From the IMG/VR virus record IMGVR_UViG_2609459834_000009, positions 1-25,515 of that record: a stretch of DNA of 25,515 nucleotides. One strand, 5' to 3'. This document shows positions 4,006 through 25,515 of the stretch, in pieces. The notes beneath the pieces are model-generated. The model was given only the letters and a program-made list of their open reading frames with translations. It made no database searches and was not told the origin of the DNA. This DNA is from a virus. Lineage: Duplodnaviria; Heunggongvirae; Uroviricota; Caudoviricetes. Numbering within the stretch: position 1 is the stretch's first letter; each line of letters opens with the position of its first letter. Both the position numbers and the translations under genes were made by a program.

Positions 4006-4232
4006 TGGCTGATGCAATGGATCTCGTACAGCAGCGCGTTGAAGAAGAACGCCAGCGCCATATCCGTGCAGCCCGTGCCAAATCACCGGGCGTGTCACGC
4101 GTACTTTGCATTGAATGTGAAGCGCCAATTCCGCCAGCACGACGCCGCGCCATTCCGGGAGTGCAGCTTTGCATTACCTGTCAGGAAATCGCAGAACTGA
4201 AAGGCAAACATTACAACGGAGGTGCTGTATGA
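4005..4232 (+). CDS. TraR/DksA-family C4 zinc-finger protein
   Basis: Cys-x2-Cys ... Cys-x2-Cys pattern (CIECEAPIP...CITCQ) in a 75-aa protein; AGGAGG RBS; translationally coupled to flanking genes. Confidence 0.75.
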   Translation: MADAMDLVQQRVEEERQRHIRAARAKSPGVSRVLCIECEAPIPPARRRAIPGVQLCITCQEIAELKGKHYNGGAV

Positions 4233-5086
4233 GCACCATCCTGAAATGGGCGGGAAATAAAACCGCCATTATGCCAGAACTGAAAAAATACCTTCCTGCT
4301 GGCCCGCGACTGGTTGAACCTTTCGCGGGTTCCTGTGCTGTGATGATGGAAACGGATTATCCCAGCTATCTGGTTGCGGATATTAATCCTGATTTAATCA
4401 ACCTCTATAAAAAGGTTGCCGCTGATTGTGAATCGTTTATATCTCGCGCCAGAGTTTTATTTGAGATCGCAAACAGGGAGGTGGCTTATTACAACATAAG
4501 GCAGGAGTTTAACTGCTCAACTGAAATTACTGATTTCATGAAAGCGGTATATTTCCTGTATCTTAATCGTCACGGTTACCGTGGTTTATGTCGCTATAAC
4601 AAGAGCGGGCATTTCAACATCCCCTACGGTAATTATAAAAATCCGTATTTCCCTGAAAAAGAACTTCGCACATTTGCAGAAAAAGCCCAGCGAGCAACGT
4701 TTATCTGCGCCAGCTTTGATGAAACGCTGGCGATGTTGAAGGCGGGAGATGTGGTGTATTGCGATCCGCCGTATGACGGTACGTTTTCCGGCTATCACAC
4801 TGATGGTTTCACTGAAGATGACCAGTATCACCTGGCATCCGTTCTTGAACATCGGTCATCAGAAGGACATCCAGTCATTGTTTCTAACAGTGACACATCC
4901 CTGATCCGTTCGCTGTATCGCAATTTTACTCACCACTATATCAAGGTAAAACGCAGCATCGGTGTGGCAGCTGGCGAGGGTAAATCAGCAACAGAAATCA
5001 TTGCTGTTTCCGGGCCGCGCTGCTGGATGGGATTTGATTATTCGCGTGGCGTGGATAGTTCTGCCGTGTACGGAGTACGTGCATGA
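4229..5086 (+). CDS. dam: N6-adenine DNA methyltransferase (Dam-like, D12 class)
   Basis: DPPY catalytic motif and N-terminal AdoMet-binding region ([17 protein letters not shown]); ATG at 4229 with GGAGG RBS; ORF-track start 4169 rejected. Confidence 0.85.
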
Positions 5087-7497
5087 GTCATGCCGATATG
5101 AACAACTGCTGCGGCTTTAACGAGGCTGCCGCAGCATTCTCATGGAACAGCCCGAAAAAGGCCATTAACCCTTATCTGGACCCGGCGGAAGTTGCGCCGG
5201 TTTCTACGCTTTCAAACCTGATCACTCTGTACGCTGCCGATAACGAGCAGGAACAGTTGCGCCGCGAGGCACTGAGTGATCAGGTCTGGGAGCGTTATTT
5301 CTTTAATGAATCACGTGATCCTGTCCAGCGCGAAATGGAGCAGGATAAGCTCATTAGCCGGGCAAAGCTGGCGCATGAGCAGCAGCGTTTTAATTCAGAC
5401 ATGGTCATTCTGGCGGACGTCAACGCCCAGCCTTCCCATATCAGCAAGCCGCTGATGCAACGTATTGAATACTTCAGCAGCCTGGGCAGGCCAAAGGCTT
5501 ATTCCCGCTATTTACGTGAGACGATTAAGCCATGTCTGGAACGACTGGAGCATGTACGCGACAGTCAGCTATCTGCATCTTTTCGCTTTATGGCAAGCCA
5601 TGAAGGGCTGGACGGCCTGCTGATCCTGCCTGAAATGAGTCAGGATCAGGTGAAACGCCTGTCCACCCTGGTAGCTGCGCATATGAGTATGTGCCTTGAT
5701 GCAGCTTGTGGTGATTTGTATGCCACCGATGACGTTAAGCCAGAAGAAATCCGCAAGACATGGGAAAAGGTGGCAGCGGAAACCCTGCGTCTGGATGTCA
5801 TCCCACCTGCGTTTGAGCAACTCCGTCGGAAAAGAAACCGCCGTAAACCCGTGCCCTATGAACTCATTCCGGGTTCGCTGGCGCGTATGTTGTGCGCCGA
5901 CTGGTGGTACCGGAAATTATGGAAGATGCGTTGCGAATGGCGGGAAGAGCAGTTGCGCGCTGTTTGCCTGGTCAGCAAAAAAGCATCTCCTTATGTCAGC
6001 TATGAAGCCGTGATGCATAAACGTGAGCAGCGCCGTAAGTCGCTGGAGTTTTTCCGTTCTCATGAACTGGTGAACGAAGACGGCGACACGCTGGACATGG
6101 AGGATGTGGTAAACGCCAGCAGCAGCAACCCTGCGCATCGCCGCAATGAGATGATGGCCTGTGTTAAAGGTCTGGAGCTTATCGCGGAAATGCGCGGTGA
6201 CTGCGCCGTTTTCTACACTATCACCTGTCCGTCGCGTTTCCATTCCACGCTAAATAACGGCAGACCAAACCCGACCTGGACAAACGCGACGGTAAGACAA
6301 AGCAGCGATTATCTGGTCGGCATGTTTGCTGCATTTCGTAAGGCGATGCACAAAGCCGGGTTGCGCTGGTATGGCGTGCGGGTGGCTGAGCCGCATCATG
6401 ATGGCACAGTTCACTGGCACCTGTTGTGTTTCATGCGCAAAAAAGACCGCCGTGCCATCACTGCATTACTGCGTAAGTTTGCCATCCGTGAAGACCGCGA
6501 GGAGCTGGGCAATAACACTGGGCCGCGCTTTAAGTCTGAGTTGATTAACCCGCGCAAAGGAACGCCGACAAGCTACATCGCGAAATATATCAGTAAGAAC
6601 ATTGACGGTCGTGGTCTGGCTGGCGAGATCAGCAAGGAAACGGGTAAATCTCTGCGTGATAACGCTGAATACGTGAATGCCTGGGCGTCTCTGCATCGTG
6701 TTCAGCAATTCCGCTTCTTTGGTATTCCGGGGCGTCAGGCTTACCGTGAACTTCGCTTGCTGGCTGGTCAGGCGGCAAGGCAACAGGGTGACAAAAAAGC
6801 AGGTGCGCCGGTACTGGATAACCCGCGTCTTGATGCCATTCTGGCTGCTGCTGATGCTGGTTGTTTTGCCACCTACATCATGAAGCAGAGCGGCGTACTG
6901 GTTCCCCGTAAATATCACCTCATCAGAACCGCTTATGAAATCAACGAAGAGCCGACCGCCTATGGCGATCACGGCATTCGTATTTATGGCATCTGGTCAC
7001 CCATTGCAGAGGGCAAGATCTGCACTCATGCAGTGAAGTGGAAAATGGTTCGTAAAGCCGTTGACGTTCAGGAGGCGGCAGCCGACCAGGGCGCTTGCGC
7101 CCCTTGGACTCGTGGCAATAACTGTCCCCTTGCTGAAAATTTGAACCAACAAGGGAAAGACAAATCAGCTGATGGGGATACCAGGACGGACATTACCCGC
7201 ATGGATGACAAGGAGTTGCACGATTACCTGCACAGTATGAGCAAAAAAGAGCGCCGGGAACTGGCTGCAAGGTTACGCCTGGTGAAGCCGAAACGGCGTA
7301 AAGACTACAAACAGCGAATTACAGACCATCAGCGACAGCAGCTCGTCTATGAACTGAAGTCCAGAGGATTTGATGGCAGCGAGAAAGAGGTCGATTTACT
7401 CCTTCGCGGCGGCAGTATTCCGTCAGGAGCAGGCCTGCGTATCTTCTATCGGAACCAGCGTTTGCAGGAAGATGATAAGTGGCGAAACCTGTATTAA
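5083..7497 (+). CDS. A: Replication initiation endonuclease (P2 gene A family, rolling-circle)
   Basis: 804-aa product with HUH-like motif (HWHLLCF) and YIAKYISKN active-site tyrosine region; ATGA overlap with dam stop. Confidence 0.85.
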
Positions 7498-7589: not shown

Positions 7590-7609
7590 TACTGTAAATA
7601 TAAACAGTG
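7590..7609. promoter_or_regulatory. LexA (SOS) box, CTGT-N8-ACAG
   Basis: tACTGTaaatataaACAGtg, a near-consensus SOS box, about 45 bp upstream of the ORF at 7651 and overlapping AT-rich promoter-like sequence. Confidence 0.65.
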
Positions 7610-7650: not shown

Positions 7651-7839
7651 ATGCAGGACTATTTTTTGGAGTCTTTGAAGCTCCAGCGCATTGATTTTTT
7701 TCTTAAGCTTGTAGCGGCTAGTGAGTGTAGTGATGAAGAGAAGGGGCTGGCTTTGCAGTGGGTTTCTGAACTGACAGATGAACTCATGGCAAAAATCAGA
7801 ACCCACGAATACAACCGCTCAATGGATGTCATCAGCTGA
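7651..7839 (+). CDS. Small SOS-regulated hypothetical protein (first gene of tum-like module)
   Basis: 62-aa ORF, ATG at 7651 with AGGAGG RBS; ORF-track start 7549 rejected because it would read through the LexA box. Confidence 0.5.
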   Translation: MQDYFLESLKLQRIDFFLKLVAASECSDEEKGLALQWVSELTDELMAKIRTHEYNRSMDVIS

Positions 7840-7849
7840 GGTGACTTTT

Positions 7850-8083
7850 ATGCGCATTGAAATAATGATCGATAAAGAGCAGAAGATTAGCCAGTCTACC
7901 CTGGACGCCCTTGAATCCGAGCTTTACCGCAATCTGCGCCCTATGTATCCCAAAACGGTAATTCGTATCCGCAAAGGTAGCTCTAACGGTGTAGAACTTA
8001 CCGGATTGCAACTGGACGAAGAAAGAAAACAAGTGATGAAAATTATGCAGAAGGTGTGGGAAGACGACAGCTGGCTGCATTAA
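7850..8083 (+). CDS. DinI-family protein
   Basis: 77-aa product MRIEIMIDKEQ...VWEDDSWLH with the DinI N- and C-terminal signatures (MRIE..., WE.D.W); GAGGTG RBS. Confidence 0.75.
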   Translation: MRIEIMIDKEQKISQSTLDALESELYRNLRPMYPKTVIRIRKGSSNGVELTGLQLDEERKQVMKIMQKVWEDDSWLH

Positions 8084-8218
8084 GAAACGTTGCTGGCGTC
8101 TGAACTTGTTTCTGGCGTCAGCAAGGTTGAACAACGAGCCCTTGCGAGGCGTTAGCTCTGTAGTGCATGTCTATGCCGCATGAGATCGCATGATCGTTTG
8201 AGGATCGTTTTTGCTAAG

Positions 8219-8242
8219 GCCCGCCAGAACTGGCGGGCTTTT
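8219..8242 (+). terminator. Rho-independent terminator after the SOS module
   Basis: GCCCGCCA-gaac-TGGCGGGC hairpin followed by TTTT. Confidence 0.6.
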
Positions 8243-8287
8243 GCGTAGATCATGCAGGTGCATGAAAACCACTACATAAAGCGGGCA

Positions 8288-8306
8288 GGCGTGGCGGGGA
8301 TACGAG
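8288..8306. other. cos-like motif (possible cohesive-end site)
   Basis: GGCGTGGCGGGGA resembles what I recall of P2/186 cohesive-end sequences; recollection-based and unverified. Confidence 0.3.
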
Positions 8307-8378
8307 CGCGCGCCATGTGGTATGGAGATTGGATCTATTCATAACTTGATGTATAAAGTAGAAAAAAGCGGGGAGATT

Positions 8379-9302
8379 ATGAATAAAAAATTTACCGATG
8401 AGCAGCAACAACAGCTTATAGGACATCTCACAAAGAAAGGCTTCTATCGAGGAGCTAATATTAAAATAACCATTTTTCTATGTGGTGGTGACGTTGCTAA
8501 TCATCAATCTTGGCGTCATCAATTATCACAATTTTTAGCAAAGTTCAGTGATGTTGATATATTTTATCCAGAAGATCTATTTGATGATCTTTTGGCTGGT
8601 CAAGGGCAGCATAGCCTTTTAAGTTTAGAAAATATTCTGGCTGAAGCTGTCGATGTAATAATTTTATTTCCTGAAAGTCCGGGGTCTTTCACAGAGCTTG
8701 GTGCGTTCTCTAATAATGAAAACTTAAGGAGAAAGTTGATTTGCATTCAAGATGCAAAATTTAAATCAAAACGTAGCTTTATTAACTATGGTCCTGTTCG
8801 CCTGTTGCGTAAGTTTAATTCAAAATCTGTTTTGCGTTGTAGTTCAAATGAACTAAAAGAAATGTGTGATTCATCTATTGATGTTGCCAGAAAATTACGA
8901 TTATATAAAAAATTAATGGCATCTATTAAGCAGGTTAGGAAAGAAAATAAAGTATCAAAAGATATTGGAAATATATTATACGCAGAGCGGTTTCTATTGC
9001 CTTGTATCTATTTACTGGATAGTGTCAACTACCGCACACTGTGTGAACTAGCTTTTAAAGCGATAAAGCAAGATGATGTTTTATCTAAAATTATTGTTAG
9101 ATCCGTTGTTTCTCGTCTAATAAATGAACGAAAAATACTTCAAATGACTGATGGTTATCAGGTCACTGCTTTGGGGGCTAGCTATGTTAGGAGCGTCTTT
9201 GATAGAAAGACACTTGACCGATTGCGGCTTGAGATTATGAATTTTGAAAACCGTAGAAAATCAACATTTAACTATGATAAGATTCCGTATGCGCACCCTT
9301 AG
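8379..9302 (+). CDS. Retron effector protein (putative nucleoside 2-deoxyribosyltransferase-like N-domain plus C-terminal domain)
   Basis: 308-aa ORF in AT-rich DNA immediately upstream of msr-msd; its stop codon (TAG 9300-9302) lies inside the a1 repeat. Start ambiguous (ATG at 8322, 8349 or 8379). Confidence 0.7.
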   Translation: MNKKFTDEQQQQLIGHLTKKGFYRGANIKITIFLCGGDVANHQSWRHQLSQFLAKFSDVDIFYPEDLFDDLLAGQGQHSLLSLENILAEAVDVIILFPESPGSFTELGAFSNNENLRRKLICIQDAKFKSKRSFINYGPVRLLRKFNSKSVLRCSSNELKEMCDSSIDVARKLRLYKKLMASIKQVRKENKVSKDIGNILYAERFLLPCIYLLDSVNYRTLCELAFKAIKQDDVLSKIIVRSVVSRLINERKILQMTDGYQVTALGASYVRSVFDRKTLDRLRLEIMNFENRRKSTFNYDKIPYAHP

Positions 9303-9458
9303 CGAGAGGTTTATCATTAAGGTCAACCTCTGGATGTTGTTTCGGCATCCTGCATTGAATCTGAGTTACTGTCTGTTTTCCTTGTTGGAACGGAGAGCAT
9401 CGCCTGATGCTCTCCGAGCCAACCAGGAAACCCGTTTTTTCTGACGTAAGGGTGCGCA
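9290..9458 (+). ncRNA. msr-msd: Retron msr-msd non-coding RNA (template/primer for msDNA)
   Basis: Flanked by 12-nt inverted repeats a1 TGCGCACCCTTA (9290-9301) and a2 TAAGGGTGCGCA (9447-9458); internal msr hairpin AGAGGTT/AACCTCT and long imperfect msd stem around GGAGAGCATC-gcct-GATGCTCTCC; sits directly upstream of the RT gene. Matches my recollection of the Ec86 ncRNA. Confidence 0.85.
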
Positions 9459-9464
9459 ACTTTC

Positions 9465-10427
9465 ATGAAATCCGCTGAATATTTGAACACTTTTAGATTG
9501 AGAAATCTCGGCCTACCTGTCATGAACAATTTGCATGACATGTCTAAGGCGACTCGCATATCTGTTGAAACACTTCGGTTGTTAATCTATACAGCTGATT
9601 TTCGCTATAGGATCTACACTGTAGAAAAGAAAGGCCCAGAGAAGAGAATGAGAACCATTTACCAACCTTCTCGAGAACTTAAAGCCTTACAAGGATGGGT
9701 TCTACGTAACATTTTAGATAAACTGTCGTCATCTCCTTTTTCTATTGGATTTGAAAAGCACCAATCTATTTTGAATAATGCTACCCCGCATATTGGGGCA
9801 AACTTTATACTGAATATTGATTTGGAGGATTTTTTCCCAAGTTTAACTGCTAACAAAGTTTTTGGAGTGTTCCATTCTCTTGGTTATAATCGACTAATAT
9901 CTTCAGTTTTGACAAAAATATGTTGTTATAAAAATCTGCTACCACAAGGTGCTCCATCATCACCTAAATTAGCTAATCTAATATGTTCTAAACTTGATTA
10001 TCGTATTCAGGGTTATGCAGGTAGTCGGGGCTTGATATATACGAGATATGCCGATGATCTCACCTTATCTGCACAGTCTATGAAAAAGGTTGTTAAAGCA
10101 CGTGATTTTTTATTTTCTATAATCCCAAGTGAAGGATTGGTTATTAACTCAAAAAAAACTTGTATTAGTGGGCCTCGTAGTCAGAGGAAAGTTACAGGTT
10201 TAGTTATTTCACAAGAGAAAGTTGGGATAGGTAGAGAAAAATATAAAGAAATTAGAGCAAAGATACATCATATATTTTGCGGTAAGTCTTCTGAGATAGA
10301 ACACGTTAGGGGATGGTTGTCATTTATTTTAAGTGTGGATTCAAAAAGCCATAGAAGATTAATAACTTATATTAGCAAATTAGAAAAAAAATATGGAAAG
10401 AACCCTTTAAATAAAGCGAAGACCTAA
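9465..10427 (+). CDS. ret: Retron-type reverse transcriptase
   Basis: 320-aa product with RT motifs QGAPSSPKLANL and YADD, plus the retron-characteristic VTG motif (RKVTGLVI). Confidence 0.9.
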   Translation: MKSAEYLNTFRLRNLGLPVMNNLHDMSKATRISVETLRLLIYTADFRYRIYTVEKKGPEKRMRTIYQPSRELKALQGWVLRNILDKLSSSPFSIGFEKHQSILNNATPHIGANFILNIDLEDFFPSLTANKVFGVFHSLGYNRLISSVLTKICCYKNLLPQGAPSSPKLANLICSKLDYRIQGYAGSRGLIYTRYADDLTLSAQSMKKVVKARDFLFSIIPSEGLVINSKKTCISGPRSQRKVTGLVISQEKVGIGREKYKEIRAKIHHIFCGKSSEIEHVRGWLSFILSVDSKSHRRLITYISKLEKKYGKNPLNKAKT

Positions 10428-10440
10428 TGGTCTTCGTTTT
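10417..10440. terminator. Bidirectional hairpin terminator between RT (+) and portal gene (-)
   Basis: CGAAGACC-taat-GGTCTTCG followed by TTTT on the plus strand and AAAA beyond; overlaps the RT stop codon. Confidence 0.55.
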
Positions 10441-10444
10441 AAAA

Positions 10445-11470
10445 CTAAAGCTCATAGGTTGAAAAATTGAGCACTTCTTCGTCCAACCAGTTATTTAGTT
10501 CCTGCAATCGTTTCTGCAGGGGCATCAATTCGTTTCTTACGAATACCTTGCTAGCCTTCTCCACATCCCCAAACCCCCCGACATTATTAGGCATAATTCC
10601 CATCATTTGCGGCGGCACGCGGTGTGCCGCCATCATGTCATCACGGCTCACGTTCTTGATATTCAGAAACTCATCCTTCGCTGCGACTTCTGACAACGGG
10701 ATAATCTGAAGTCCGTCTTTTTTACCATTAGGCGAGTACATAAACAGGTTGCGGAAGTTGCCAGGGCCTTTGGCACTTTTCATCGCATTGCGGAGGTTGT
10801 TCACATCTTCCTGGTTCTGCGCGGCGTCGGTCATATACATGATGAAGCCAGCATGACTGCCGTTAATGTAATACTTTCGACGGAACAGCGTGGCGGACTC
10901 ATTGAGCAGGGCGGACGGAATGGCAGAAAGATAGCCTGGCAAGCCGTAGATCTCCTGGTTAATGTCCGGTTCCATCAGATGAAAAATGCTGCCTTTCGTG
11001 AACTGATACGGCTGGGTTGTCATACCGTATTGCACAAACCAGTAGGTATCCAGGTCTAACCCGCGTCGGGTGTATTTTGCCAGTGCAGGCTCAAGGGCGA
11101 TAACTTCACCGAAGCGGTTCGTGCGTTTCTCCAGGTAGGCGTTACCAAAAACCAGATAGTCCTGCACAAAACGCGAAAAAGCCTGCTGGCTGAGCAGCGG
11201 GTGAGGGATGTAGGTGCTGGTCAGAATGTTGCACTTCACTGCAATCGGTGAGCTGTGATGCACGGCGGCGCGGAAGGTTCGCGCCAGTCCGTCGAAACTC
11301 ACAGGCGGCTCATACCAACGATCCATCTGTACGCATTCCACATAGTCCAGCAGTTCGCGGCGGTCCAGAACAGGAACGGGATCGCCAAAGCTGAATGCTT
11401 CGGCTGAAGTTTGGTTTTTATGCTGGATCTGATTCGTCGCCGCAGCGCGTTTTTTCTTACTCTTTCCCAT
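10445..11470 (-). CDS. Q: Portal protein (P2 gpQ family)
   Basis: 341-aa product co-linear with P2 Q; ATG at 11468-11470 with GGAG RBS; start overlaps terminase stop (TGATG). Confidence 0.85.
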   Translation of the reverse strand: MGKSKKKRAAATNQIQHKNQTSAEAFSFGDPVPVLDRRELLDYVECVQMDRWYEPPVSFDGLARTFRAAVHHSSPIAVKCNILTSTYIPHPLLSQQAFSRFVQDYLVFGNAYLEKRTNRFGEVIALEPALAKYTRRGLDLDTYWFVQYGMTTQPYQFTKGSIFHLMEPDINQEIYGLPGYLSAIPSALLNESATLFRRKYYINGSHAGFIMYMTDAAQNQEDVNNLRNAMKSAKGPGNFRNLFMYSPNGKKDGLQIIPLSEVAAKDEFLNIKNVSRDDMMAAHRVPPQMMGIMPNNVGGFGDVEKASKVFVRNELMPLQKRLQELNNWLDEEVLNFSTYEL

Positions 11471-13236
11471 CAAAAAATCTCCACAATATTGCTGGTATTG
11501 GCGGATTCGCCCTGCAGCGGTTCGTTAAACAGTGCGTGCATGGTTGCCCAGGCCAGATCGGCATGGCTGGCTTCTTCGCTGCGGCTGGCTTCATAGGTTG
11601 GGCGGTTGCCGCTGGCGGTGGTGGCGCGACGGATTGCCATAAATGACTGCGCTATGTCGGTGTGTCCGGCGTCAAACTCCAGACGACGGTGACTGATAAT
11701 GTCGTAGGCCTTGAGTACCAGGGCGTTTTTAACGTTGGGGTTGTAGACAAACTCCCGGACGGCTGGAAAAAACGCTTTCACGTTCTCGTAAACCCCGTGG
11801 CCGACACCTGTCGAGTCGATGCCGATGTAGGTCACGTTGTACTGTTCGGTCAGTTTTTTGATGGCGTCAGCCTGGGCGCGAAAGTCCATTCCGCGCCACT
11901 GGTGACGCTCAAGAATGCGGAACTTGCCGCCCGGCACGGCTGGCGGTGCTACCACCACGCATCCGGCGCTGTCGCCATTCTGCGTACCTTTCGCCGGGTC
12001 ATAACCGATCCATACTTCGCGCCAGCCAAACGGGCGCAGGGCCAGTGCATGAAAGTCAGTCCAGACTTCCCAGCTGTCTACCATGCACGCCTGCAGCTCG
12101 CTGAGCGGGAACACGGACGCGAGATCGTCCACAAACTCGCACATCAGCAGGTTCTGGTATTCGTCCGGGCTGTACTCCATGCGCAACTGGTCAAGGTCGA
12201 ACAGGTTACAGCCGCCGCGCACCGCATCTTCCACGGTGACTATCTGGCGGTATTGCCCGTCTGCGCACAGCAGGCCGGGGGCCAGATTGCTGTGGGACAG
12301 GTCGATGTCCACCTTATCGGCTTTGTTGCGCCCACGGTTGAACAGCGCACCGGACCAGAACGGATAAGCACTGTGTGTCAGGCTGGATGGCGTGGAAAAA
12401 TAGGTTTGTCGCCATTTTTTGTGAATAGCCATACCGGAAGCCACTTTGCGCAGCTCCTGGAATTTCGGTATCCAGAAATATTCATCCAGATACAGGTTGC
12501 CGTGGTAACTCTGGGCCGTGCGGGCATTGGTGCCGAGGAAGTAAAGCGTGGCCCCGTTGGGAAGCACCATCGGATCGCCTTTCAGCTCCACCTCCACTTC
12601 TTTGGCGAAGTCGATGATGTACTGCTTAAAGACGTGGGCCTGTGCCTTACTGGCAGAAAGGAAAATCTGGTTACGTCCGGTAAGCAGGGCGTCAATCAGG
12701 GCTTCACGGGCAAAATAGAAGGTCGCGCCGATCTGGCGTGACTTCAGCAGGTTGCGGATGCGGTTGGTTTTTCCGGCTTCCCACCAGTGGCGCTGGTAGT
12801 TGAACATGGAGGAATGGAAAATTTCTTCCAGCTTCTCAATCTGTTCATCGGTGAAAACATTCTTTTCAGGCTGACGGCGTGGGCCTTTGTTGCGGTTGGC
12901 GACGTTAGGGTTTAAGTCAGCTTCGTTGCCGCCATTGTTAAACTTGCCGATCCGCGCGTGGCGCTCCGACTGGCGCGCCAGCAGGTCAATCTCTTTGAAA
13001 TCTTTCCCTTCTTTGTGCTCCTTCATGATGAGCTGGCAGTAGCGTGCGGCGGTGGTGAGCTGCATCTGATCCAGCGGCCCATAGTCACCCCACTTGTCGC
13101 GTTTTTTCCAGCTGTGAACGGTTGCAGCTTTCTCGCCCAGCATTTCAGCAATGCGGGCTACGCGGTATCCCTGAAAGTACAGCAGCATGGCCTGCCGACG
13201 GGGATCGAGATCTGCGGGTGTCAGTGTGGTGTTCAT
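11470..13236 (-). CDS. P: Terminase large (ATPase) subunit (P2 gpP family)
   Basis: 588-aa product; size and position upstream of portal on the minus strand as in P2. Confidence 0.9.
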   Translation of the reverse strand: MNTTLTPADLDPRRQAMLLYFQGYRVARIAEMLGEKAATVHSWKKRDKWGDYGPLDQMQLTTAARYCQLIMKEHKEGKDFKEIDLLARQSERHARIGKFNNGGNEADLNPNVANRNKGPRRQPEKNVFTDEQIEKLEEIFHSSMFNYQRHWWEAGKTNRIRNLLKSRQIGATFYFAREALIDALLTGRNQIFLSASKAQAHVFKQYIIDFAKEVEVELKGDPMVLPNGATLYFLGTNARTAQSYHGNLYLDEYFWIPKFQELRKVASGMAIHKKWRQTYFSTPSSLTHSAYPFWSGALFNRGRNKADKVDIDLSHSNLAPGLLCADGQYRQIVTVEDAVRGGCNLFDLDQLRMEYSPDEYQNLLMCEFVDDLASVFPLSELQACMVDSWEVWTDFHALALRPFGWREVWIGYDPAKGTQNGDSAGCVVVAPPAVPGGKFRILERHQWRGMDFRAQADAIKKLTEQYNVTYIGIDSTGVGHGVYENVKAFFPAVREFVYNPNVKNALVLKAYDIISHRRLEFDAGHTDIAQSFMAIRRATTASGNRPTYEASRSEEASHADLAWATMHALFNEPLQGESANTSNIVEIF

Positions 13237-18744: not shown

Positions 18745-19183
18745 ACTGCAGAAGGTGGACGACTGGCTGAGTGCCTTGCTGGCGAATCTGGAACCAGCCA
18801 CGAGAAGCCGTATGATGCGCCAGCTGGCGCAGGAATTGCGCCGGACACAGCAGCAGAATATCAGGATGCAGCGCAATCCAGATGGCAGCAGTTATGAACC
18901 GCGCAGGGTAACAGCACGCAGCAAGAAGGGGCGCATCAAACGTCAGATGTTTGCAAAGCTGCGCACCACAAAATACCTGAAAACTGCCGCCAGCGCCGAC
19001 TCTGCCAGCGTACAGTTTGAAGGCAAGGTGCAGCGTATTGCCCGTGTTCACCATTACGGCCTGCGTGATCGCGTCAGTCGCAAAGGACCGGAGGTCCGTT
19101 ACGCAGAGCGCCGCCTGCTGGGTGTAAATGATGATGTTGAGGCAATGACCCGCGACATGATTCTGCAATGGCTGGCGGGGTGA
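18737..19183 (+). CDS. S: Tail completion / virion morphogenesis protein S (P2 gpS family)
   Basis: 148-aa product (DDWLSALLANLEP...) resembling P2 gpS; GTG start overlapping R stop. Confidence 0.75.
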   Translation: MAELQKVDDWLSALLANLEPATRSRMMRQLAQELRRTQQQNIRMQRNPDGSSYEPRRVTARSKKGRIKRQMFAKLRTTKYLKTAASADSASVQFEGKVQRIARVHHYGLRDRVSRKGPEVRYAERRLLGVNDDVEAMTRDMILQWLAG

Positions 19184-19187
19184 TCTT

Positions 19188-19205
19188 TGTATCAGCACTG
19201 ATACA
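19188..19205. promoter_or_regulatory. TGT-N12-ACA near-perfect palindrome between S and V (candidate late-activator site and/or S terminator hairpin)
   Basis: TGTATCAGcaCTGATACA directly after the S stop; no U-tract follows. Confidence 0.35.
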
Positions 19206-19251
19206 AGTTGCAGCACTGCCGCCTTTCTTCCCCTGATGGCAACCTTTCCCT

Positions 19252-19830
19252 ATGAACGCACAATTAACCGAAATCATGCGCCTTATCACCAATCTGATCC
19301 GCACAGGTGTAGTCACCGAAGTGGACCGGGAAAACTGGCTTTGTCGGGTGAAAACGGGCGACCTTGAAACCAACTGGATTAACTGGCTGACGCTGCGCGC
19401 GGGTAATGCCCGCACATGGTGGAAACCATCGGAAGGTGAGCAGGTGGTGCTGCTGAGTCTGGGAGGCAATCTGGAAACCGCGTTTGCGCTGCCCGCCATC
19501 TATTCGAATCAGCTCGCGCCACCGTCGACGTCGGCGGACGCCTGCGTGACAGAACATCCTGACGGTGGCTGGTTTGAATATGAACCCGCCACCGGGCGCT
19601 GGTATGTCAGGGGCATCAAATCAATGGTCATTGAGGCCGCTGACAACATCACCATGAAAACCAGTGAGTTTGTACTGGAGGCTGACCGCACGCGCATTAA
19701 CAGCGAAGTGGTGATCAATGGTGGCGTTACCCAGGGCGGCGGAGCGATGAGTTCTAACGGGATCGTGGTTGATGCGCATCAGCATACTGGCGTCCTGAAA
19801 GGCGGCGACACAACCGGAGGCCCGGTATGA
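19252..19830 (+). CDS. V: Baseplate spike/assembly protein V (P2 gpV family)
   Basis: 192-aa product aligning with P2 gpV from the first Met (NLIRTGVVTEVD, TWWKPSEGEQVVLLSLGG). Confidence 0.85.
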   Translation: MNAQLTEIMRLITNLIRTGVVTEVDRENWLCRVKTGDLETNWINWLTLRAGNARTWWKPSEGEQVVLLSLGGNLETAFALPAIYSNQLAPPSTSADACVTEHPDGGWFEYEPATGRWYVRGIKSMVIEAADNITMKTSEFVLEADRTRINSEVVINGGVTQGGGAMSSNGIVVDAHQHTGVLKGGDTTGGPV

Positions 19831-21679: not shown

Positions 21680-23415
21680 GCACAAAATTTTATACCCTGC
21701 TGACGGATATTGGCGCGGCGAAACTTGCCAGCGCCGCCGCGCTCGGTGTGCCGCTAAAAATTACCCATATGGCGGTGGGCGATGGCGGCGGAGTATTGCC
21801 AACGCCGGACGCAAAGCAGACGGCACTGGTAAATGAGAAACGCCGGGCTGCGCTGAATATGCTTTATATCGACCCGCAGAACAGCAGCCAGATTATTGCT
21901 GAACAGGTGATCCCTGAAAACGAGGGCGGTTGGTGGATACGTGAAGTGGGCCTGTTTGATGAGTCCGGGGCATTGATTGCCGTGGGAAACTGCCCGGAAA
22001 GCTATAAGCCGCAACTGGCTGAAGGCAGCGGGCGTACCCAGACCGTGCGCATGGTGCTGATTACCAGCAGTACGGACAATATCACCCTGAAAATCGACCC
22101 TGCTGTAGTGCTGGCAACCCGCAAGTATGTGGATGACAAGGCACTGGAGCTGAAGGTGTACGCGGATGATCAGATGGCAAAACATCTTGCCGCACCGGAC
22201 CCGCATTCACAGTACGCGCCAAAAGCCAGCCCGACATTTACCGGAACCCCCAAAGCGCCAACGCCAGCGGCGGGGAATAATACCACGCAGGTTGCGACCA
22301 CTGCGTTTGTACAGGCGGCACTGACGGACCTTATTAATGGTGCGCCAGCCACGCTGGACACGCTGAAAGAAATAGCCGCAGCCATTAACAATGATCCGAA
22401 TTTCAGTACCACCATTAACAATGCGCTGGCACTAAAAGCACCGTTGTCGAGTCCGGCACTCACCGGAACGCCAACAGCCCCCACGGCGGCGCAGTCGGTC
22501 AACAATACACAGATTGCCACTACGGCTTTTGTGAAATCGGCGATTGCAGGAATGGTGGGTTCTGCACCTGCTGCACTGGATACACTGAACGAACTGGCGG
22601 CGGCACTGGGGAATGATCCGAACTTTGCCACGACAATGCTTAATGCGCTGGCAGGTAAACAACCGCTGGACAATACGCTTACCAATTTGAGTGGAAAGGA
22701 TGTAGCTGGTCTTCTCACATACCTTGGTATTAAAAACGCATCAACAACACAGGTGGGTTTAGTCCGGTTAACGTCATCGCGGGTATCGGGTGCAGAGGAT
22801 ATTGCAGCCACAGCTAATGCTGTCGCGCAAAACTATACGGACATAAAATCTTTGCAAAACAAAACTCAGGATTCAACTACGACACAGAAAGGAATTGTTC
22901 AACTTACATCATCAAGGGTATCCGAATCTGAAACGCTTGCTGCAACAGCAAAAGCGGCAGCGATGAATTATGCGGATATTGTAGCTCTGCAAGGCAAGAC
23001 TAATGATGCAACCACTACAAACAAGGGAATTATCCGCGTATCTGATTCCAGAACATCAACAGAATCTGGTGTTGCTGCATCATCACTTGCTGCATCACAA
23101 AACTATTCAGATATGAAAGGGTTGTTTGGTCAATGCGGAATGAAATCTAGAAATCTCGGTGTCGTATACACCAACAGCCAGTCTTTCGCCATATTTGTAA
23201 GCGTCAATGCGGTGCTGTCTGACGGTAGTTCATTTCTGAGCGCCAACGTAAGCGTGGATGGTAATTCGGCTAATTTTCGCGGCTCTCAGACAACAAATCT
23301 TGCAGGGCAAAGAGCAACTATCGCATTCATGGTTCCTGCCGGTGCGACCTATATTGTGCAGCAGTTTTCAGGAACAGTGTCAGATGTTACCTGGGTAGAG
23401 GTGGATAAAAAATGA
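21676..23415 (+). CDS. H: Tail fibre protein H with internal repeats and an AT-rich C-terminal receptor-binding region
   Basis: 579-aa product; conserved P2-H-like N-terminus; two tandem ~72-aa repeats and three ~43-aa repeats; composition shifts to AT-rich after about 22670. Confidence 0.85.
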   Translation: MSTKFYTLLTDIGAAKLASAAALGVPLKITHMAVGDGGGVLPTPDAKQTALVNEKRRAALNMLYIDPQNSSQIIAEQVIPENEGGWWIREVGLFDESGALIAVGNCPESYKPQLAEGSGRTQTVRMVLITSSTDNITLKIDPAVVLATRKYVDDKALELKVYADDQMAKHLAAPDPHSQYAPKASPTFTGTPKAPTPAAGNNTTQVATTAFVQAALTDLINGAPATLDTLKEIAAAINNDPNFSTTINNALALKAPLSSPALTGTPTAPTAAQSVNNTQIATTAFVKSAIAGMVGSAPAALDTLNELAAALGNDPNFATTMLNALAGKQPLDNTLTNLSGKDVAGLLTYLGIKNASTTQVGLVRLTSSRVSGAEDIAATANAVAQNYTDIKSLQNKTQDSTTTQKGIVQLTSSRVSESETLAATAKAAAMNYADIVALQGKTNDATTTNKGIIRVSDSRTSTESGVAASSLAASQNYSDMKGLFGQCGMKSRNLGVVYTNSQSFAIFVSVNAVLSDGSSFLSANVSVDGNSANFRGSQTTNLAGQRATIAFMVPAGATYIVQQFSGTVSDVTWVEVDKK

Positions 23416-23780
23416 TAACAATGATGAAGTATTACAAAGATGAAAATAACGTCGTATATGCCTACGATGCGTATGGCACACAGGATGCTTTTATCAAAGA
23501 AGGGCTTGTGCCAATCACCAGAAGTGAGGCTATGGCAATTATTAATCCCCCACCGACTCATGAACAACTCATCCAGGCTGCTGAAAATGAGCGACAGCGA
23601 TTACTGTCCGCCGCTGATGCAATTATGCTCGACTGGCGCACAGAGCTGATGCTGGGTGAAATCAGCGATGCCAACAGAGCTAAACTTTCGGCGTGGCTTT
23701 TATATAAGAATCAGGTTAAGGCTGTTGATGTAACAACCGACCCTGAGCATGTTAACTGGCCTGTCATCCCGGAACTTTAG
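23412..23780 (+). CDS. G: Tail fibre assembly chaperone (gpG/Tfa family)
   Basis: 122-aa ORF immediately after H with ATGA overlap; AT-rich like the H C-terminus. Confidence 0.7.
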   Translation: MITMMKYYKDENNVVYAYDAYGTQDAFIKEGLVPITRSEAMAIINPPPTHEQLIQAAENERQRLLSAADAIMLDWRTELMLGEISDANRAKLSAWLLYKNQVKAVDVTTDPEHVNWPVIPEL

Positions 23781-23785
23781 CTGGT

Positions 23786-23971
23786 TTGGCTATTGCCAGA
23801 TCCAAAGGCCGGATTGGTGGGCGTAGACCGAAGTTTAGCGACGAGCAGTGGCAACAGATGGGAGCGCTCATAGCGGCAGGGAAATCACGGCGTTATGTTG
23901 CACGTATCTATAACGTTGGGCTATCAACCCTATATAAACGATTTCCTGTTACTGGCATTCAAACGAAATAA
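23786..23971 (+). pseudogene. C-terminal fragment of a Gin/Pin/Hin-type serine DNA invertase (HTH domain only)
   Basis: Translation LAIARSKGRIGGRRPKFSDEQWQQ...VGLSTLYKRFP matches the C-terminal DNA-binding domain of invertases; no catalytic N-terminal domain; no ATG (TTG in track); similarity begins about 23771, directly at the tfa stop. Confidence 0.6.
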
Positions 23972-24107
23972 TTTATTTAAAGAGTTATTTGTCTAATGTT
24001 GGAAGCCGCAGCCACGTCGTATGCAAGAACGTGCTGCGGCTGGCTGGAGAACTTTCGATAGTGCGAGTATTGAATGATTTCCAGCCGTTACCGATTTTAC
24101 GTGTTAA

Positions 24108-24356
24108 TTAGTGAACAAACCACTCGTCAGCAGATTCCCAGGTATCTTTCAGAGTCTCCTGAACAAAAGTTTTTGCAGAATCCTTATCTGCTGTGCGTGT
24201 AACAGAAAGGCCATCGTTGCTGGTGGCTTTTACGATCACCTCTACATCGTCATAACGTTTACTGATGCGTCGGGTTAATTCTTCCTTTAACGCATCCACA
24301 GCACCGGTTGGCATTTTAGTCATTTTTTCTTTGGCTATGCAGATTTCAATACGCAT
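24108..24356 (-). CDS. DinI-family protein (second paralog)
   Basis: 82-aa product [11 protein letters not shown]...[10 protein letters not shown], close to my recollection of E. coli DinI. Confidence 0.8.
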
Positions 24357-24369
24357 AAAAGTCCCTCTA

Positions 24370-24417
24370 TACTGTGTTTGTATACAGTATTATTTTTAAC
24401 TGTATAGATAAACAGTG
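24370..24417. promoter_or_regulatory. Two tandem LexA boxes upstream of the second dinI-like gene
   Basis: tACTGTgtttgtatACAGta (24370-24389) and aaCTGTatagataaACAGtg (24398-24417), both CTGT-N8-ACAG. Confidence 0.65.
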
Positions 24418-25515
24418 TCAAGAGGCCTTATTTCTGCTCCTTTGGAGCTCTTCAAAACGATTATGTAAAGATTTCGGATACAGTTCGGTATATACCTGCC
24501 ATAGCACGTTTAATGAACGATGCCCTGTAACCTGGGCGACTTCCTCAATACTAAAACCAGCCTCAAATAAGCGACTTGCCCCTTCTCTACGCAAATCATG
24601 GTATCGCAGATCTTTAATACCTAATTTGCTTCTTACCCTCTGGAATCCCGCAGTAACAGAAGTGCTGTTATATGGAAAAATGAATTCTGATTTTTTGGGT
24701 TGTCGTTGGACGATATCCCAGGCTTCCCCAAGCAAGGCTACTTTCATATGGTTGCCTTCCTTTTTACGTGGATCTTTCCTGTCTCTTACGAGTATGGATT
24801 TTTGTTCCTGATCGAGATCCTCCCATCGTAATCGGCATACTTCACCGATTCGCATACATGACCACACAGAAAATTTGAGGATATCAACGAACGGAATTTT
24901 TGAGCATTTATGTGTAGATCGTTGTTGAAGACCTTCAATGAGCATGTCCAGTTCATCAGATGCCGGTCTACGATTACGACGATTTGATTTACCAATTAAA
25001 CCAAGTTTAAGTAGATATGGACGAGCGGCTTTTGCTGGGTTTGATGTGTAATTAATTCCATATACAGGTTTGGCAGCATCCAGAACACTGCCAAGATAAC
25101 TAACATCGTGGCTAACTGTAGCTGGACCTGCACCAGCGTTGTTTCTTAGCCTGCAATGTTCAATTACGTCATTTTCTGTCAGTTCAGATAGTTTGATCGC
25201 GGAGATGTCACTATCCATAAGCAGTTCCAGCACATATCTTTTAGTACGGCCTGCTTTACCTCCGGCATTTGGGTCATTTAAATATTTGTGTAGTAAGTCA
25301 CGGACTGTAAGTCCGTCAACTGCATTTGATGATGGAATGCCATATAGATCTAATTCCATCACTTTCTGTGTGCCCCATGTTTTGGCATGAGCATGTTTAG
25401 GGAATGTTTTACTTTCCCTGTAAGTGATAACACCTTTTTCTTTGATAATCACATTACAGCGATAGCGTGGTGTGCCATCGGATTTTAGTCGTTTCTCTAT
25501 GTTATAGTACGCCAT
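24418..25515 (-). CDS. Tyrosine-type integrase of a second integrative element (start at window edge; may be N-terminally incomplete)
   Basis: 365-aa translation with phage-integrase C-terminal catalytic region (HDLRREGASRL, ...VYTELYP); the ATG at 25513-25515 is the last codon of the window. Confidence 0.75.
   Translation of the reverse strand: MAYYNIEKRLKSDGTPRYRCNVIIKEKGVITYRESKTFPKHAHAKTWGTQKVMELDLYGIPSSNAVDGLTVRDLLHKYLNDPNAGGKAGRTKRYVLELLMDSDISAIKLSELTENDVIEHCRLRNNAGAGPATVSHDVSYLGSVLDAAKPVYGINYTSNPAKAARPYLLKLGLIGKSNRRNRRPASDELDMLIEGLQQRSTHKCSKIPFVDILKFSVWSCMRIGEVCRLRWEDLDQEQKSILVRDRKDPRKKEGNHMKVALLGEAWDIVQRQPKKSEFIFPYNSTSVTAGFQRVRSKLGIKDLRYHDLRREGASRLFEAGFSIEEVAQVTGHRSLNVLWQVYTELYPKSLHNRFEELQRSRNKAS

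What the first reader, a model, noticed from the sequence alone, without database searches (positions are those of the whole stretch)
8084..10444. Retron sits in the variable slot between the early/SOS module and the portal gene, next to a cos-like motif
In P2-type phages the region between gene A and the portal gene holds non-essential accessory genes (tin/old in P2) and is a known hotspot for anti-phage cargo. Here that slot holds the retron. A motif GGCGTGGCGGGGA at 8288-8300 resembles cohesive-end sequences I recall for P2/186; if it is cos, the retron would lie between the genome end and Q.
Basis: partly seen in the sequence, partly recalled or inferred. Interest (0 to 1): 0.6.

Follow-up and report, generated by a model that had tools for sequence, protein, structure and literature searches.

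The report
Retron Ec86 beside prophage cos site
The well-studied anti-phage retron Ec86 (Eco1) sits right after the DNA-packaging (cos) site and before the portal gene of a P2/186-type prophage; this placement is correct but was published in 1996, so it is ordinary.

Summary

- **The motif is a real cos site.** GGCGTGGCGGGGA at 8288-8300 is the start of a P2-family cos site. The 55-bp cos core (8259-8313) aligns without gaps to P2, 186 and P4. It is identical in Fels-2 and near-identical in other described phages.
- **The cargo is retron Ec86/Eco1.** The 2.1 kb from 8314 to the portal stop at 10445 has 30-37% GC. The RT is 100% identical to PDB 7v9u and the NDT effector matches 7v9x at 306/307. 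The msr-msd has the expected a1/a2 repeats.
- **The slot is variable.**
  - In 81 related loci, homology on the left ends at 8311-8314 in 72.
  - The cos-to-Q interval is "empty" (173-175 bp) in only 2 of 84 loci.
  - Otherwise it carries varied defence genes, including Ec67-type and other type II-A retrons.
  - All 48 complete E. coli genomes and all 8 IMG/VR contigs with Ec86-like retrons have it in this position.
- **Prior art.** Dodd & Egan 1996 reported that Ec67 and Ec86 replace about 180 bp between cos and the packaging-gene terminator. Rousset 2022 described the gpA-gpQ hotspot.
- **One correction.** tin/old of P2 lie on the other side of cos. That side is empty here.

The parts
7592..7607 (+). 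Perfect LexA box (CTGTAAATATAAACAG) upstream of the small ORF and DinI operon. It is the counterpart of the 186 p95/tum SOS promoter.
   Evidence: 186 annotation
7651..7839 (+). Small conserved ORF (62 aa) preceding DinI. The 96-aa ORF listed from 7549 is probably an over-extension.
   Evidence: a 189-nt CDS is annotated at the same place in relatives
7850..8083 (+). DinI-like (Tum-type) SOS modulator gene. It is the last conserved gene of the early/SOS arm.
   Evidence: Pfam DinI 2.2e-22; annotated homologues
8084..8258 (.). The gene-A-side (tin/old-equivalent) slot, empty here. It holds conserved non-coding DNA homologous to the 186 right end, with a terminator-like hairpin at 8216-8242.
   Evidence: hairpin -25.1 kcal/mol, z = -4.2. 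The same interval is 907 bp with an extra gene in BL21 and VG1046.
8259..8313 (+). The 55-bp cos core of the P2 family. The predicted 19-nt cohesive end is 8288-8306 (GGCGTGGCGGGGATACGAG), which matches 186 at 15 of 19 positions.
   Evidence: The 55-bp core concept comes from Ziermann & Calendar 1990, as cited in PMC5694545 and PMC9122126. The cleavage positions are inferred by homology and were not measured.
8314..10444 (+). Cargo cassette of foreign DNA (30-37% GC against 50-55% in the backbone). It comprises retron Ec86/Eco1, type II-A.
8329..8357 (+). Candidate sigma-70 promoter for the retron operon (TTGGAT, 17-nt spacer, TATAAA). Read by eye and inferred only; the consensus scan did not report it.
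   Evidence: sequence; one search lists no promoter here
8379..9302 (+). Retron effector, 307 aa: a nucleoside-deoxyribosyltransferase-like N-glycosidase with a DNA-binding domain. It has one substitution relative to the PDB sequence (K185Q).
   Evidence: PDB 7v9x_C 4e-203, 306/307; PADLOC NDT_II-A 3e-94
9290..9458 (+). The msr-msd non-coding RNA gene. a1 is 9290-9301, the branching G is 9302, the msr stem-loops are 9305-9350, msd is 9360-9445 with its long stem at 9377-9430, and a2 is 9447-9458. The gene overlaps the effector stop codon.
   Evidence: The 86-nt msDNA sequence that I recalled from memory matches 9360-9445 exactly on the complementary strand.
9465..10427 (+). Retron reverse transcriptase, 320 aa, with the NATPH (region X), YADD and VTG motifs.
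   Evidence: 100% identical to PDB 7v9u_A; Pfam RVT_1 2.9e-25; PADLOC RT_II-A 7e-128
10417..10436 (.). G+C-rich hairpin between the convergent RT and portal genes. It has a T-run on both strands, so it is probably a bidirectional terminator, and it belongs to the cassette.
   Evidence: Each different cargo carries its own hairpin at this place.
10445..11473 (-). Portal gene (P2 Q / 186 W homologue). Its last 35 or so codons fall in the zone where homology between relatives resumes.
   Evidence: Pfam Phage_portal 4.6e-18
11470..13236 (-). Large terminase (P2 P homologue), the enzyme expected to act on the cos site.
   Evidence: Pfam Terminase_6N, Terminase_6C and Terminase_5

Best explanation
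The window is a 186/Fels-2-type member of the P2 family (Peduoviridae) integrated as a prophage.

**The cos site.** Positions 8259-8313 are its cos site, the 55-bp core that the terminase recognises. The 19-nt cohesive end is predicted at 8288-8306.

**The cargo.** Directly after the core, from 8314 to the portal stop codon, the roughly 175 bp of spacer and terminator present in 'empty' relatives is replaced by a 2.1-kb low-GC cassette. This cassette is retron Ec86 (Retron-Eco1, type II-A).

**Position in the virion (inferred).** In a packaged genome the retron would be the first 2.1 kb at the left end. In the prophage it is a lysogenic-conversion (moron-type) defence cassette with its own promoter and terminator.

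**How the retron works (from the literature on the identical proteins, not tested here).**
- The RT copies the msd part of the ncRNA into an 86-nt msDNA branched from G9302.
- RT, msDNA and effector assemble into filaments in which the msDNA cages the NDT-like N-glycosidase.
- Modification (methylation) of the msDNA by an infecting phage's methyltransferase releases or activates the effector.
- The effector hydrolyses NAD+ and aborts the infection.

**How the cassette got there (inferred).** Cassette exchange between P2-like genomes by homologous recombination, using the invariant cos core on one side and the 3' end of the portal gene on the other. The retron did not move itself.
For: **cos homology.**
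- The ungapped alignment with P2, 186 and P4 is conserved from about -33 to +26 and diverges in every genome right after (T/C)GCGCGC.
- 74/74 bp are identical to Fels-2, with near-identity to SopEPhi, RE-2010, Cartapus and MLG42.
- There is one copy per window and one copy between DinI and Q in every related locus with enough flank.

**Retron identity.**

**Foreign composition.**

**Slot behaviour in 84 related loci.**
- The cos-to-Q interval is 173-175 bp in 2 loci and 517-3514 bp in 82.
- The left junction lies at 8311-8314 in 72 of 81 loci. The right junction is spread over 10437-10551.
- The cargo falls into 57 protein clusters, including RT-Toprim (Ec67 type; PDB 9lm3 5e-217), another II-A retron, GmrSD, PIN, AIPR, TIR, Schlafen, DprA+PRTase, Hypoth_Ymh and SieB.

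**Same position in every Ec86 carrier.**

**Literature.**
- The gpA-gpQ hotspot (PMC9122126).
- The Ec86 mechanism (PMC13376987; PMC12804668).
Against: - The cohesive-end cleavage positions are inferred by homology. No record in the phage collection starts at this variant's 19-mer, so the ends of this cos variant (4 of 19 positions differ from 186) were not verified here.
- The prophage in the window may be defective. After the tail-fibre assembly gene (23780) the late region is replaced by part of another element, as in E. coli B. This copy may therefore never be packaged.
- No promoter for the retron was found by the consensus scan.
- The recombination route is inferred from junction positions only.
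Confidence: 0.93

Rival explanations
1. The 13-mer is a chance G+C-rich match and there is no cos site here. The retron would then simply lie in an intergenic region of a prophage.
For: Positions 14-19 differ from P2 and 186 at 4 of 6 positions.
Against: - Expected chance matches are 0.06.
- Homology extends over about 59 bp on both sides, in register with the annotated cos of P2, 186 and P4.
- The same core is invariant, single-copy and in the same position in more than 80 related loci and in isolated phages.
Confidence: 0.01
2. The cos sequence is intact, but this particular prophage is a defective remnant that is never packaged. On this reading 'between the genome end and Q' is only a historical description, and the retron is now effectively a fixed chromosomal defence island.
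For: - After the tail-fibre assembly gene (23412-23780) the window continues with a partial recombinase, a second DinI-like gene and a tyrosine integrase of another element. The tail sheath, tube and D genes are not there.
- The Ec86-bearing prophage of BL21 is visibly decayed, with pseudogenes in CII, A, lysozyme and D.
- The best E. coli match to the whole window stops at 23779.
Against: - The window ends at 25515, so the missing genes might lie beyond an inserted element.
- All head, lysis and baseplate ORFs within the window are open.
- Strain VG1046-3E9 carries the same retron in an apparently complete early and head region.
- This rival does not contradict the placement. It only bears on whether this copy is still mobile.
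Confidence: 0.35
3. The retron inserted itself next to cos by RT-dependent or site-specific transposition. This was the original view of retrons as 'potential transposable elements'.
For: - Retrons encode an RT.
- Three or four different retrons (Ec86, a 59%-identical II-A retron, the Ec67 type, and the 4LV2017 retron) are found at the same site.
Against: - The same two junctions are used by dozens of unrelated cargoes without any RT.
- The junction replaces about 175 bp rather than duplicating a target.
- The right junction is diffuse, inside the Q coding sequence, which is typical of homologous exchange.
- No integrase or endonuclease domain is present in the cassette.
Confidence: 0.03

Closest known systems
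Retron Ec86 / Retron-Eco1 of E. coli B and BL21 in its 186-related prophage (Dodd & Egan 1996, Virology 219:115; Lim & Maas 1989)
   Same: - The same retron: RT 100% identical, effector 306/307, and the cassette 99.8% identical in DNA to BL21.
- The same cos core.
- The same junction sequence, CGCGCGC|CATGTGGTATGG.
- The same convergent portal gene.
   Different: - The window is not the B-strain copy.
- It lacks the 700-bp insert with a 111-aa gene that BL21 and VG1046 carry on the other side of cos.
- It has an A-tract 2 nt shorter before the effector RBS, and K185Q in the effector.
- Its early region (CII, A) is intact, whereas BL21's is decayed.
The cos-proximal gpA-gpQ defence hotspot of P2-like phages (Odegrip 2006; Rousset et al. 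2022, PMC9122126)
   Same: It lies between the replication endonuclease and the portal gene and is adjacent to cos. It holds highly variable, low-GC, defence-rich cargo that includes retrons.
   Different: The published definition treats A-to-Q as one locus. Here cos splits it into two sub-slots, and in my sample of 80 loci the two share no cargo cluster. The retron is in the portal-side sub-slot.
P2 tin/old and 186 orf97 accessory genes
   Same: They are non-essential exclusion genes in the same A-to-Q interval of the same phage family.
   Different: They lie on the gene-A side of cos, at the right end of the virion DNA. In P2 and 186 only 165-190 bp separate cos from the portal gene. The retron lies on the opposite side of cos.
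The P4 / phiR73 cos-adjacent hotspot (gop-beta-cII; retron Ec73)
   Same: The cargo begins right after the same 55-bp cos core, on the same (cosL) side. P4 diverges from P2 at the same base as the window does. Retrons occur there too (PMC9122126).
   Different: It is a satellite with no portal or terminase genes. Cargo there is reported in either orientation, whereas portal-side cargo in this phage lineage was co-oriented in 56 of 57 clusters.

Membership tests
Retron (type II-A, Ec86/Eco1) | A retron-clade reverse transcriptase with the YADD catalytic motif, NAxxH (region X) and VTG (region Y) | tested here: met
   320/320 identity to PDB 7v9u_A; NATPH, YADD and VTG are visible in the alignment; PADLOC RT_II-A 7e-128; Pfam RVT_1
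Retron (type II-A, Ec86/Eco1) | An adjacent msr-msd ncRNA, closed by a1/a2 inverted repeats, with a branching G after a1 and a long msd hairpin | tested here: met
   a1 9290-9301 and a2 9447-9458 are 12/12 complementary; G is at 9302; the msd stem is 9377-9430; MFE -81.1, z = -8.25. No Rfam family reaches threshold, so this rests on structure and on identity to Ec86.
Retron (type II-A, Ec86/Eco1) | A cognate effector of the NDT (nucleoside deoxyribosyltransferase-like) plus DNA-binding type, encoded in the same operon | tested here: met
   PADLOC NDT_II-A 3e-94; 306/307 identity to PDB 7v9x_C
Retron (type II-A, Ec86/Eco1) | Production of branched msDNA and anti-phage activity | not testable with these tools
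   Established experimentally for the identical proteins and ncRNA, according to the literature. Not measured for this copy.
P2-family cos site | The conserved 55-bp core shared by P2 and P4 (Ziermann & Calendar 1990) | tested here: met
   Ungapped alignment over -29 to +26, with divergence immediately outside on the portal side; citations
P2-family cos site | Position between the right-arm accessory/SOS genes and the portal-terminase operon, with the cognate terminase genes adjacent | tested here: met
   The order is DinI 7850-8083, cos 8259-8313, portal 10445-11473 (-), terminase 11470-13236 (-). This matches the order in P2 and 186.
P2-family cos site | Terminase cleavage giving 19-nt 5' cohesive ends at this sequence | not testable with these tools
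   Inferred by register with the annotated ends of P2 and 186. No collection record begins at this variant's 19-mer. Cartapus annotates it only as 'putative cos'.
P2-like gpA-gpQ defence hotspot | Conserved flanks with unrelated, frequently defence-related cargo in related genomes | tested here: met
   - 1277 of 5426 E. coli genomes share the left flank, but only 48 carry the retron.
- There are 57 cargo protein clusters in 80 IMG/VR loci.
- Defence families are listed.

The most novel reading that the evidence does not exclude
The A-to-Q 'hotspot' may really be two independent cassette sites separated by cos.

- The portal-side site is bounded on the left to within a few bases by the edge of the 55-bp cos core.
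- It accepts only cargo transcribed toward the portal gene, each cargo with its own terminator.
- It lies on the same side of the same core as the P4-satellite hotspot.

If so, the cos core itself could serve as the shared homology arm, or terminase-cut DNA ends as recombination substrates. That would let defence cassettes such as retrons shuttle between helper phages and their satellites.

My sample supports the descriptive parts: a sharp left junction, 56 of 57 clusters co-oriented, and no cluster shared between the two sides. It does not test the mechanism. Part of this idea is already discussed in the literature (Rousset 2022; the 2026 NAR paper on swapping between P2 and P4).
Probability: 0.25. 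Interest if true: 0.35.

Novelty: already known. Interest (0 to 1): 0.1.

Why it matters
It matters little as a discovery. Both the retron (Ec86/Eco1, the workhorse of retron genome editing, with several cryo-EM structures) and its placement between cos and the portal gene of a 186-related prophage have been in the literature since 1996. The surrounding hotspot was catalogued in 2022.

The check is still useful in three ways:
- It fixes the exact boundaries: cos core 8259-8313 and cargo 8314-10444.
- It corrects the conflation of the retron's slot with the tin/old slot.

The survey of 80 related loci also gives a clean picture of how sharply the cos core delimits the exchangeable cassette. That picture could be used as an anchor for mining cargo in P2-like prophages.

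Tried and rejected
- **Rfam.** No family matched the msr-msd at gathering threshold across the whole window. At E up to 10 on 9200-9520 there were only chance miRNA-type hits. The ncRNA was therefore defined from inverted repeats, folding and identity to Ec86.
- **Pfam on the effector.** No hit. PADLOC and PDB sequence searches identified it instead.
- **Wrong frame.** My first effector coordinates (8380) were out of frame. The correct start is 8379.
- **Unavailable papers.** Odegrip 2006, Dodd & Egan 1996 and one bioRxiv preprint are not held in the library. They are cited only through papers that quote them.
- **A search with a two-letter term** failed.
- **GTDB representative genomes.** The scan with the RT gave only a 534-bp low-coverage contig in a Bacillales assembly, evidently contamination. 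It therefore gave no view of hosts outside the Enterobacteriaceae.
- **Direct evidence for the ends.** I looked for a phage record beginning at this cos variant's 19-mer and found none. Cartapus starts 32 bp upstream and calls it 'putative'.
- **Promoter scan.** No sigma-70 site was found between cos and the effector. The candidate at 8329-8357 was read by eye only.
- **Rejected readings.** A chance motif, and self-insertion by the retron (see the rival explanations).
Full report
**1. What is in the window**

ORF listing and Pfam scans show the gene order of a 186/Fels-2-type member of the P2 family:
- integrase (1-1209, -) and CI repressor (1449-2105, -);
- CII (2423-2941) and a Dam-type methyltransferase (4169-5086);
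- replication endonuclease A (5083-7497; Phage_GPA 1e-127);
- a small ORF and a DinI-like gene (7850-8083);
- the interval under study;
- a convergent portal gene (10445-11473, -) and large terminase (11470-13236, -);
- head, lysis, baseplate and tail-fibre genes.

A perfect LexA box (CTGTAAATATAAACAG, 7592-7607) precedes the small ORF and DinI pair. It mirrors the LexA-controlled p95/tum operon annotated in 186.

**2. The motif is the cos site**

GGCGTGGCGGGGA occurs once, at 8288-8300, against 0.06 matches expected.

I fetched the annotated ends of P2, 186 and P4, joined the right and left ends, and anchored all sequences on the 19-mer.

- On the gene-A side, the window reads ...gtgcatgaaaaccactacataaagcgggca. 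186 reads ...ctgcattaaaaccgacccataaagtgggca, and P2 reads ...gtgcattaaaaccgccccgtgaagcgggcg.
- The first 13 bases of the cohesive end are identical to 186. Positions 14, 16, 17 and 19 differ, giving GGCGTGGCGGGGATACGAG.
- The next seven bases, (T/C)GCGCGC, are again conserved in all four genomes.
- Immediately after that heptamer every genome diverges from every other.

The block shared by P2 and P4 in this alignment is 29 + 19 + 7 = 55 bp. This matches the '55-bp core' of Ziermann & Calendar 1990, as quoted in PMC5694545 and PMC9122126. In window coordinates the core is 8259-8313.

The 74 bp at 8240-8313 are 100% identical in Fels-2. They are 94.6-98.6% identical in SopEPhi, RE-2010, Yersinia phage MLG42 and phage Cartapus, where the sequence is annotated 'putative cos site'. 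This cos variant therefore belongs to phages described as such.

What is not shown is the cleavage itself. The 19-nt end is inferred by register with P2 and 186.

**3. The cargo is retron Ec86 (Eco1)**

- The RT (9465-10427) is 320/320 identical to PDB 7v9u_A, 'RNA-directed DNA polymerase from retron EC86'.
- The upstream 307-aa protein (8379-9302) is 306/307 identical to the Ec86 'ribosyltransferase/DNA-binding protein' (7v9x_C). It matches PADLOC NDT_II-A at 3e-94. The RT matches RT_II-A at 7e-128.
- Between them lies the ncRNA gene. It has 12-nt a1/a2 repeats (9290-9301 and 9447-9458), G9302 after a1, two msr hairpins and a 25-bp msd stem (9377-9430). The MFE is -81 kcal/mol, z = -8.25.
- The 86-nt msDNA sequence as I recall it maps exactly to 9360-9445 on the complementary strand.
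- GC falls from 50-55% in the backbone to 30-37% across 8314-10440.
- A hairpin at 10417-10436, with T-runs on both strands, separates the RT stop from the portal stop.
- The cassette is 99.8-99.9% identical to those of BL21(DE3), REL606 and 46 other complete E. coli genomes.
- It differs from BL21 by a 2-nt shorter A-tract at 8361, by K185Q in the effector, and by one silent RT change.

**4. Which side of cos**

In P2 the order is A, orf91, tin, old, cos, about 165 bp with terminator tQ, then Q. In 186 it is A, tum, orf97, cos, about 175 bp with tW, then W. The classical accessory genes therefore sit on the gene-A side of cos.

In the window that side holds only 204 bp of conserved non-coding DNA with a terminator-like hairpin (8216-8242). 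The retron sits on the portal side, starting 26 bp from the predicted left end.

BL21 and VG1046-3E9 have the same cos-retron junction. They also carry a 111-aa minus-strand gene on the gene-A side. Both sides can therefore hold cargo independently.

**5. Comparison with related loci**

Using the portal protein, I fetched 80 IMG/VR loci with Q at least 94% identical. I added nine annotated phages and prophages.

- Every locus with enough flank has exactly one cos core between DinI and Q.
- The gene-A-side interval is 'empty' (203-211 bp) in 25 of 77 loci. Elsewhere it is 0.9-4.5 kb.
- The portal-side interval is 'empty' (173-175 bp, with its own terminator hairpin) in only 2 of 84 loci. Elsewhere it is 0.5-3.5 kb.
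- On the cos side, homology to the window stops at 8311-8314 in 72 of 81 loci.
- On the portal side, homology resumes anywhere between 10437 and 10551, that is, within the last 35 or so codons of Q.
- ORFs of at least 120 aa in the portal-side slot form 57 clusters. 56 of them are transcribed toward Q, and none is shared with the gene-A-side slot.
- They include Ec67-type RT-Toprim retrons (PDB 9lm3 5e-217) and a second II-A retron (RT 59% and effector 50% identical).
- Other families found are GmrSD, PIN_12, AIPR, TIR, Schlafen, AAA_13, DprA+PRTase, Hypoth_Ymh and SieB.
- Annotated phages show the same pattern. Examples are an Abi-alpha/AIPR gene in Klebsiella phage ST512-KPC3phi13.2, a retron in phage 4LV2017, TIR in 500465-1 and DUF4145 in Cartapus.

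**6. Is the retron ever elsewhere?**

- All 48 E. coli genomes with the retron have it contiguous with the cos flank.
- All eight IMG/VR contigs encoding an RT 83-100% identical to Ec86 have the layout cos core, about 65 bp, effector, msr-msd, RT, then a convergent Q. This includes backbones whose Q is only 81-91% identical and whose A is only 46-60% identical.
- The only hit in GTDB representatives was a 534-bp, 1.2x-coverage contig in a Bacillales assembly. I read this as laboratory contamination.

**7. Mechanism**

*Shown here:* the identity of all three retron components to the experimentally studied system, and its position.

*Taken from the literature for the identical system:*
- Phage-driven methylation of msDNA activates the system.
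- The effector hydrolyses NAD+, causing abortive infection.

These points come from Wang 2022/2024 and Carabias 2024, as summarised in PMC13376987 and PMC12804668.

One observation is consistent with a cytosine-methylation trigger. The only CCWGG in the 2.1-kb cassette lies in the msd stem (9423), and the ncRNA has no GATC even though the prophage encodes a Dam-type enzyme.

*Inferred:* the cassette arrived by homologous exchange, using the cos core and the Q 3' end as arms. The same junctions serve dozens of RT-less cargoes, and the right junction is diffuse.

**8. Caveat on this copy**

After the tail-fibre assembly gene (23412-23780) the window continues with:
- a partial recombinase;
- a second DinI-like gene with two LexA boxes;
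- a tyrosine integrase (24418-25515, -) of another element.

The tail sheath and tube genes are not there. The best whole-window match in E. coli ends at 23779. This prophage may be truncated, like the B-strain one. In that case 'genome end' describes ancestry rather than a present-day virion.

**9. Verdict**

The novelty is nil: Dodd & Egan 1996 covers the exact placement, and Odegrip 2006 and Rousset 2022 cover the hotspot. Interest is low.

Noticed in passing
window 23781-25515: The P2-like late region breaks off after the tail-fibre assembly gene. What follows is a partial recombinase, a second DinI-like gene (24108-24356, -) preceded by two perfect LexA boxes (24372-24387 and 24400-24415), and a tyrosine integrase (24418-25515, -) that runs off the window. 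This looks like a junction with another integrated element. The prophage may lack its tail sheath, tube and D genes.
   Followed up: partly
window 7592-7607: A perfect LexA box lies upstream of the 62-aa ORF and DinI pair. It is the counterpart of the LexA-controlled p95/tum SOS operon of phage 186.
   Followed up: partly
window 8084-8258, compared with L005 (BL21) 11060-11966: The gene-A-side (tin/old-equivalent) slot is empty here (204 bp). In BL21 and VG1046-3E9 it holds a 700-bp insert with a 111-aa minus-strand gene of unknown function. In other relatives it holds 0.9-4.5 kb.
   Followed up: partly
L013-L092 (IMG/VR loci), cos-to-Q interval: Cargo ORFs on the portal side of cos are transcribed toward the portal gene in 56 of 57 protein clusters. 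Each cargo brings its own hairpin next to the Q stop. No cluster is shared with the other side of cos. The left junction is sharp (8311-8314). The right junction lies inside the last 35 or so codons of Q.
   Followed up: partly
L096 (NZ_VLXZ01000042.1, Alkalicoccobacillus porphyridii assembly): A 534-bp contig with coverage 1.2 encodes residues 120-296 of the Ec86 RT at 99% identity. This is almost certainly E. coli B/BL21-derived contamination in a Bacillales genome assembly.
   Followed up: no
window 9423-9427 and 4169-5086: The only CCWGG site in the 2.1-kb cassette lies in the msd stem. The ncRNA gene has no GATC, although the prophage encodes a D12-class (Dam-type) adenine methyltransferase. 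This fits the reported activation of Ec86 by msDNA methylation, but it was not tested.
   Followed up: no
window 8361, 8931 and 10355: Differences from the BL21 retron are an A-tract 2 nt shorter just upstream of the effector ribosome-binding site, K185Q in the effector, and one silent change in the RT. The A-tract length could affect expression.
   Followed up: no
window 19183-19252, compared with L005 19285-20091 and L006 22982-23782: There is a third variable slot between the virion-morphogenesis gene and baseplate gene V. It is empty in the window. BL21 has a DUF6216 gene there, and VG1046-3E9 has a TIR-domain gene.
   Followed up: no
window 9290-9458: Rfam 15 has no model that detects the Ec86 msr-msd, even at E up to 10. 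Retron ncRNAs of this type will be missed by Rfam-based annotation.
   Followed up: yes
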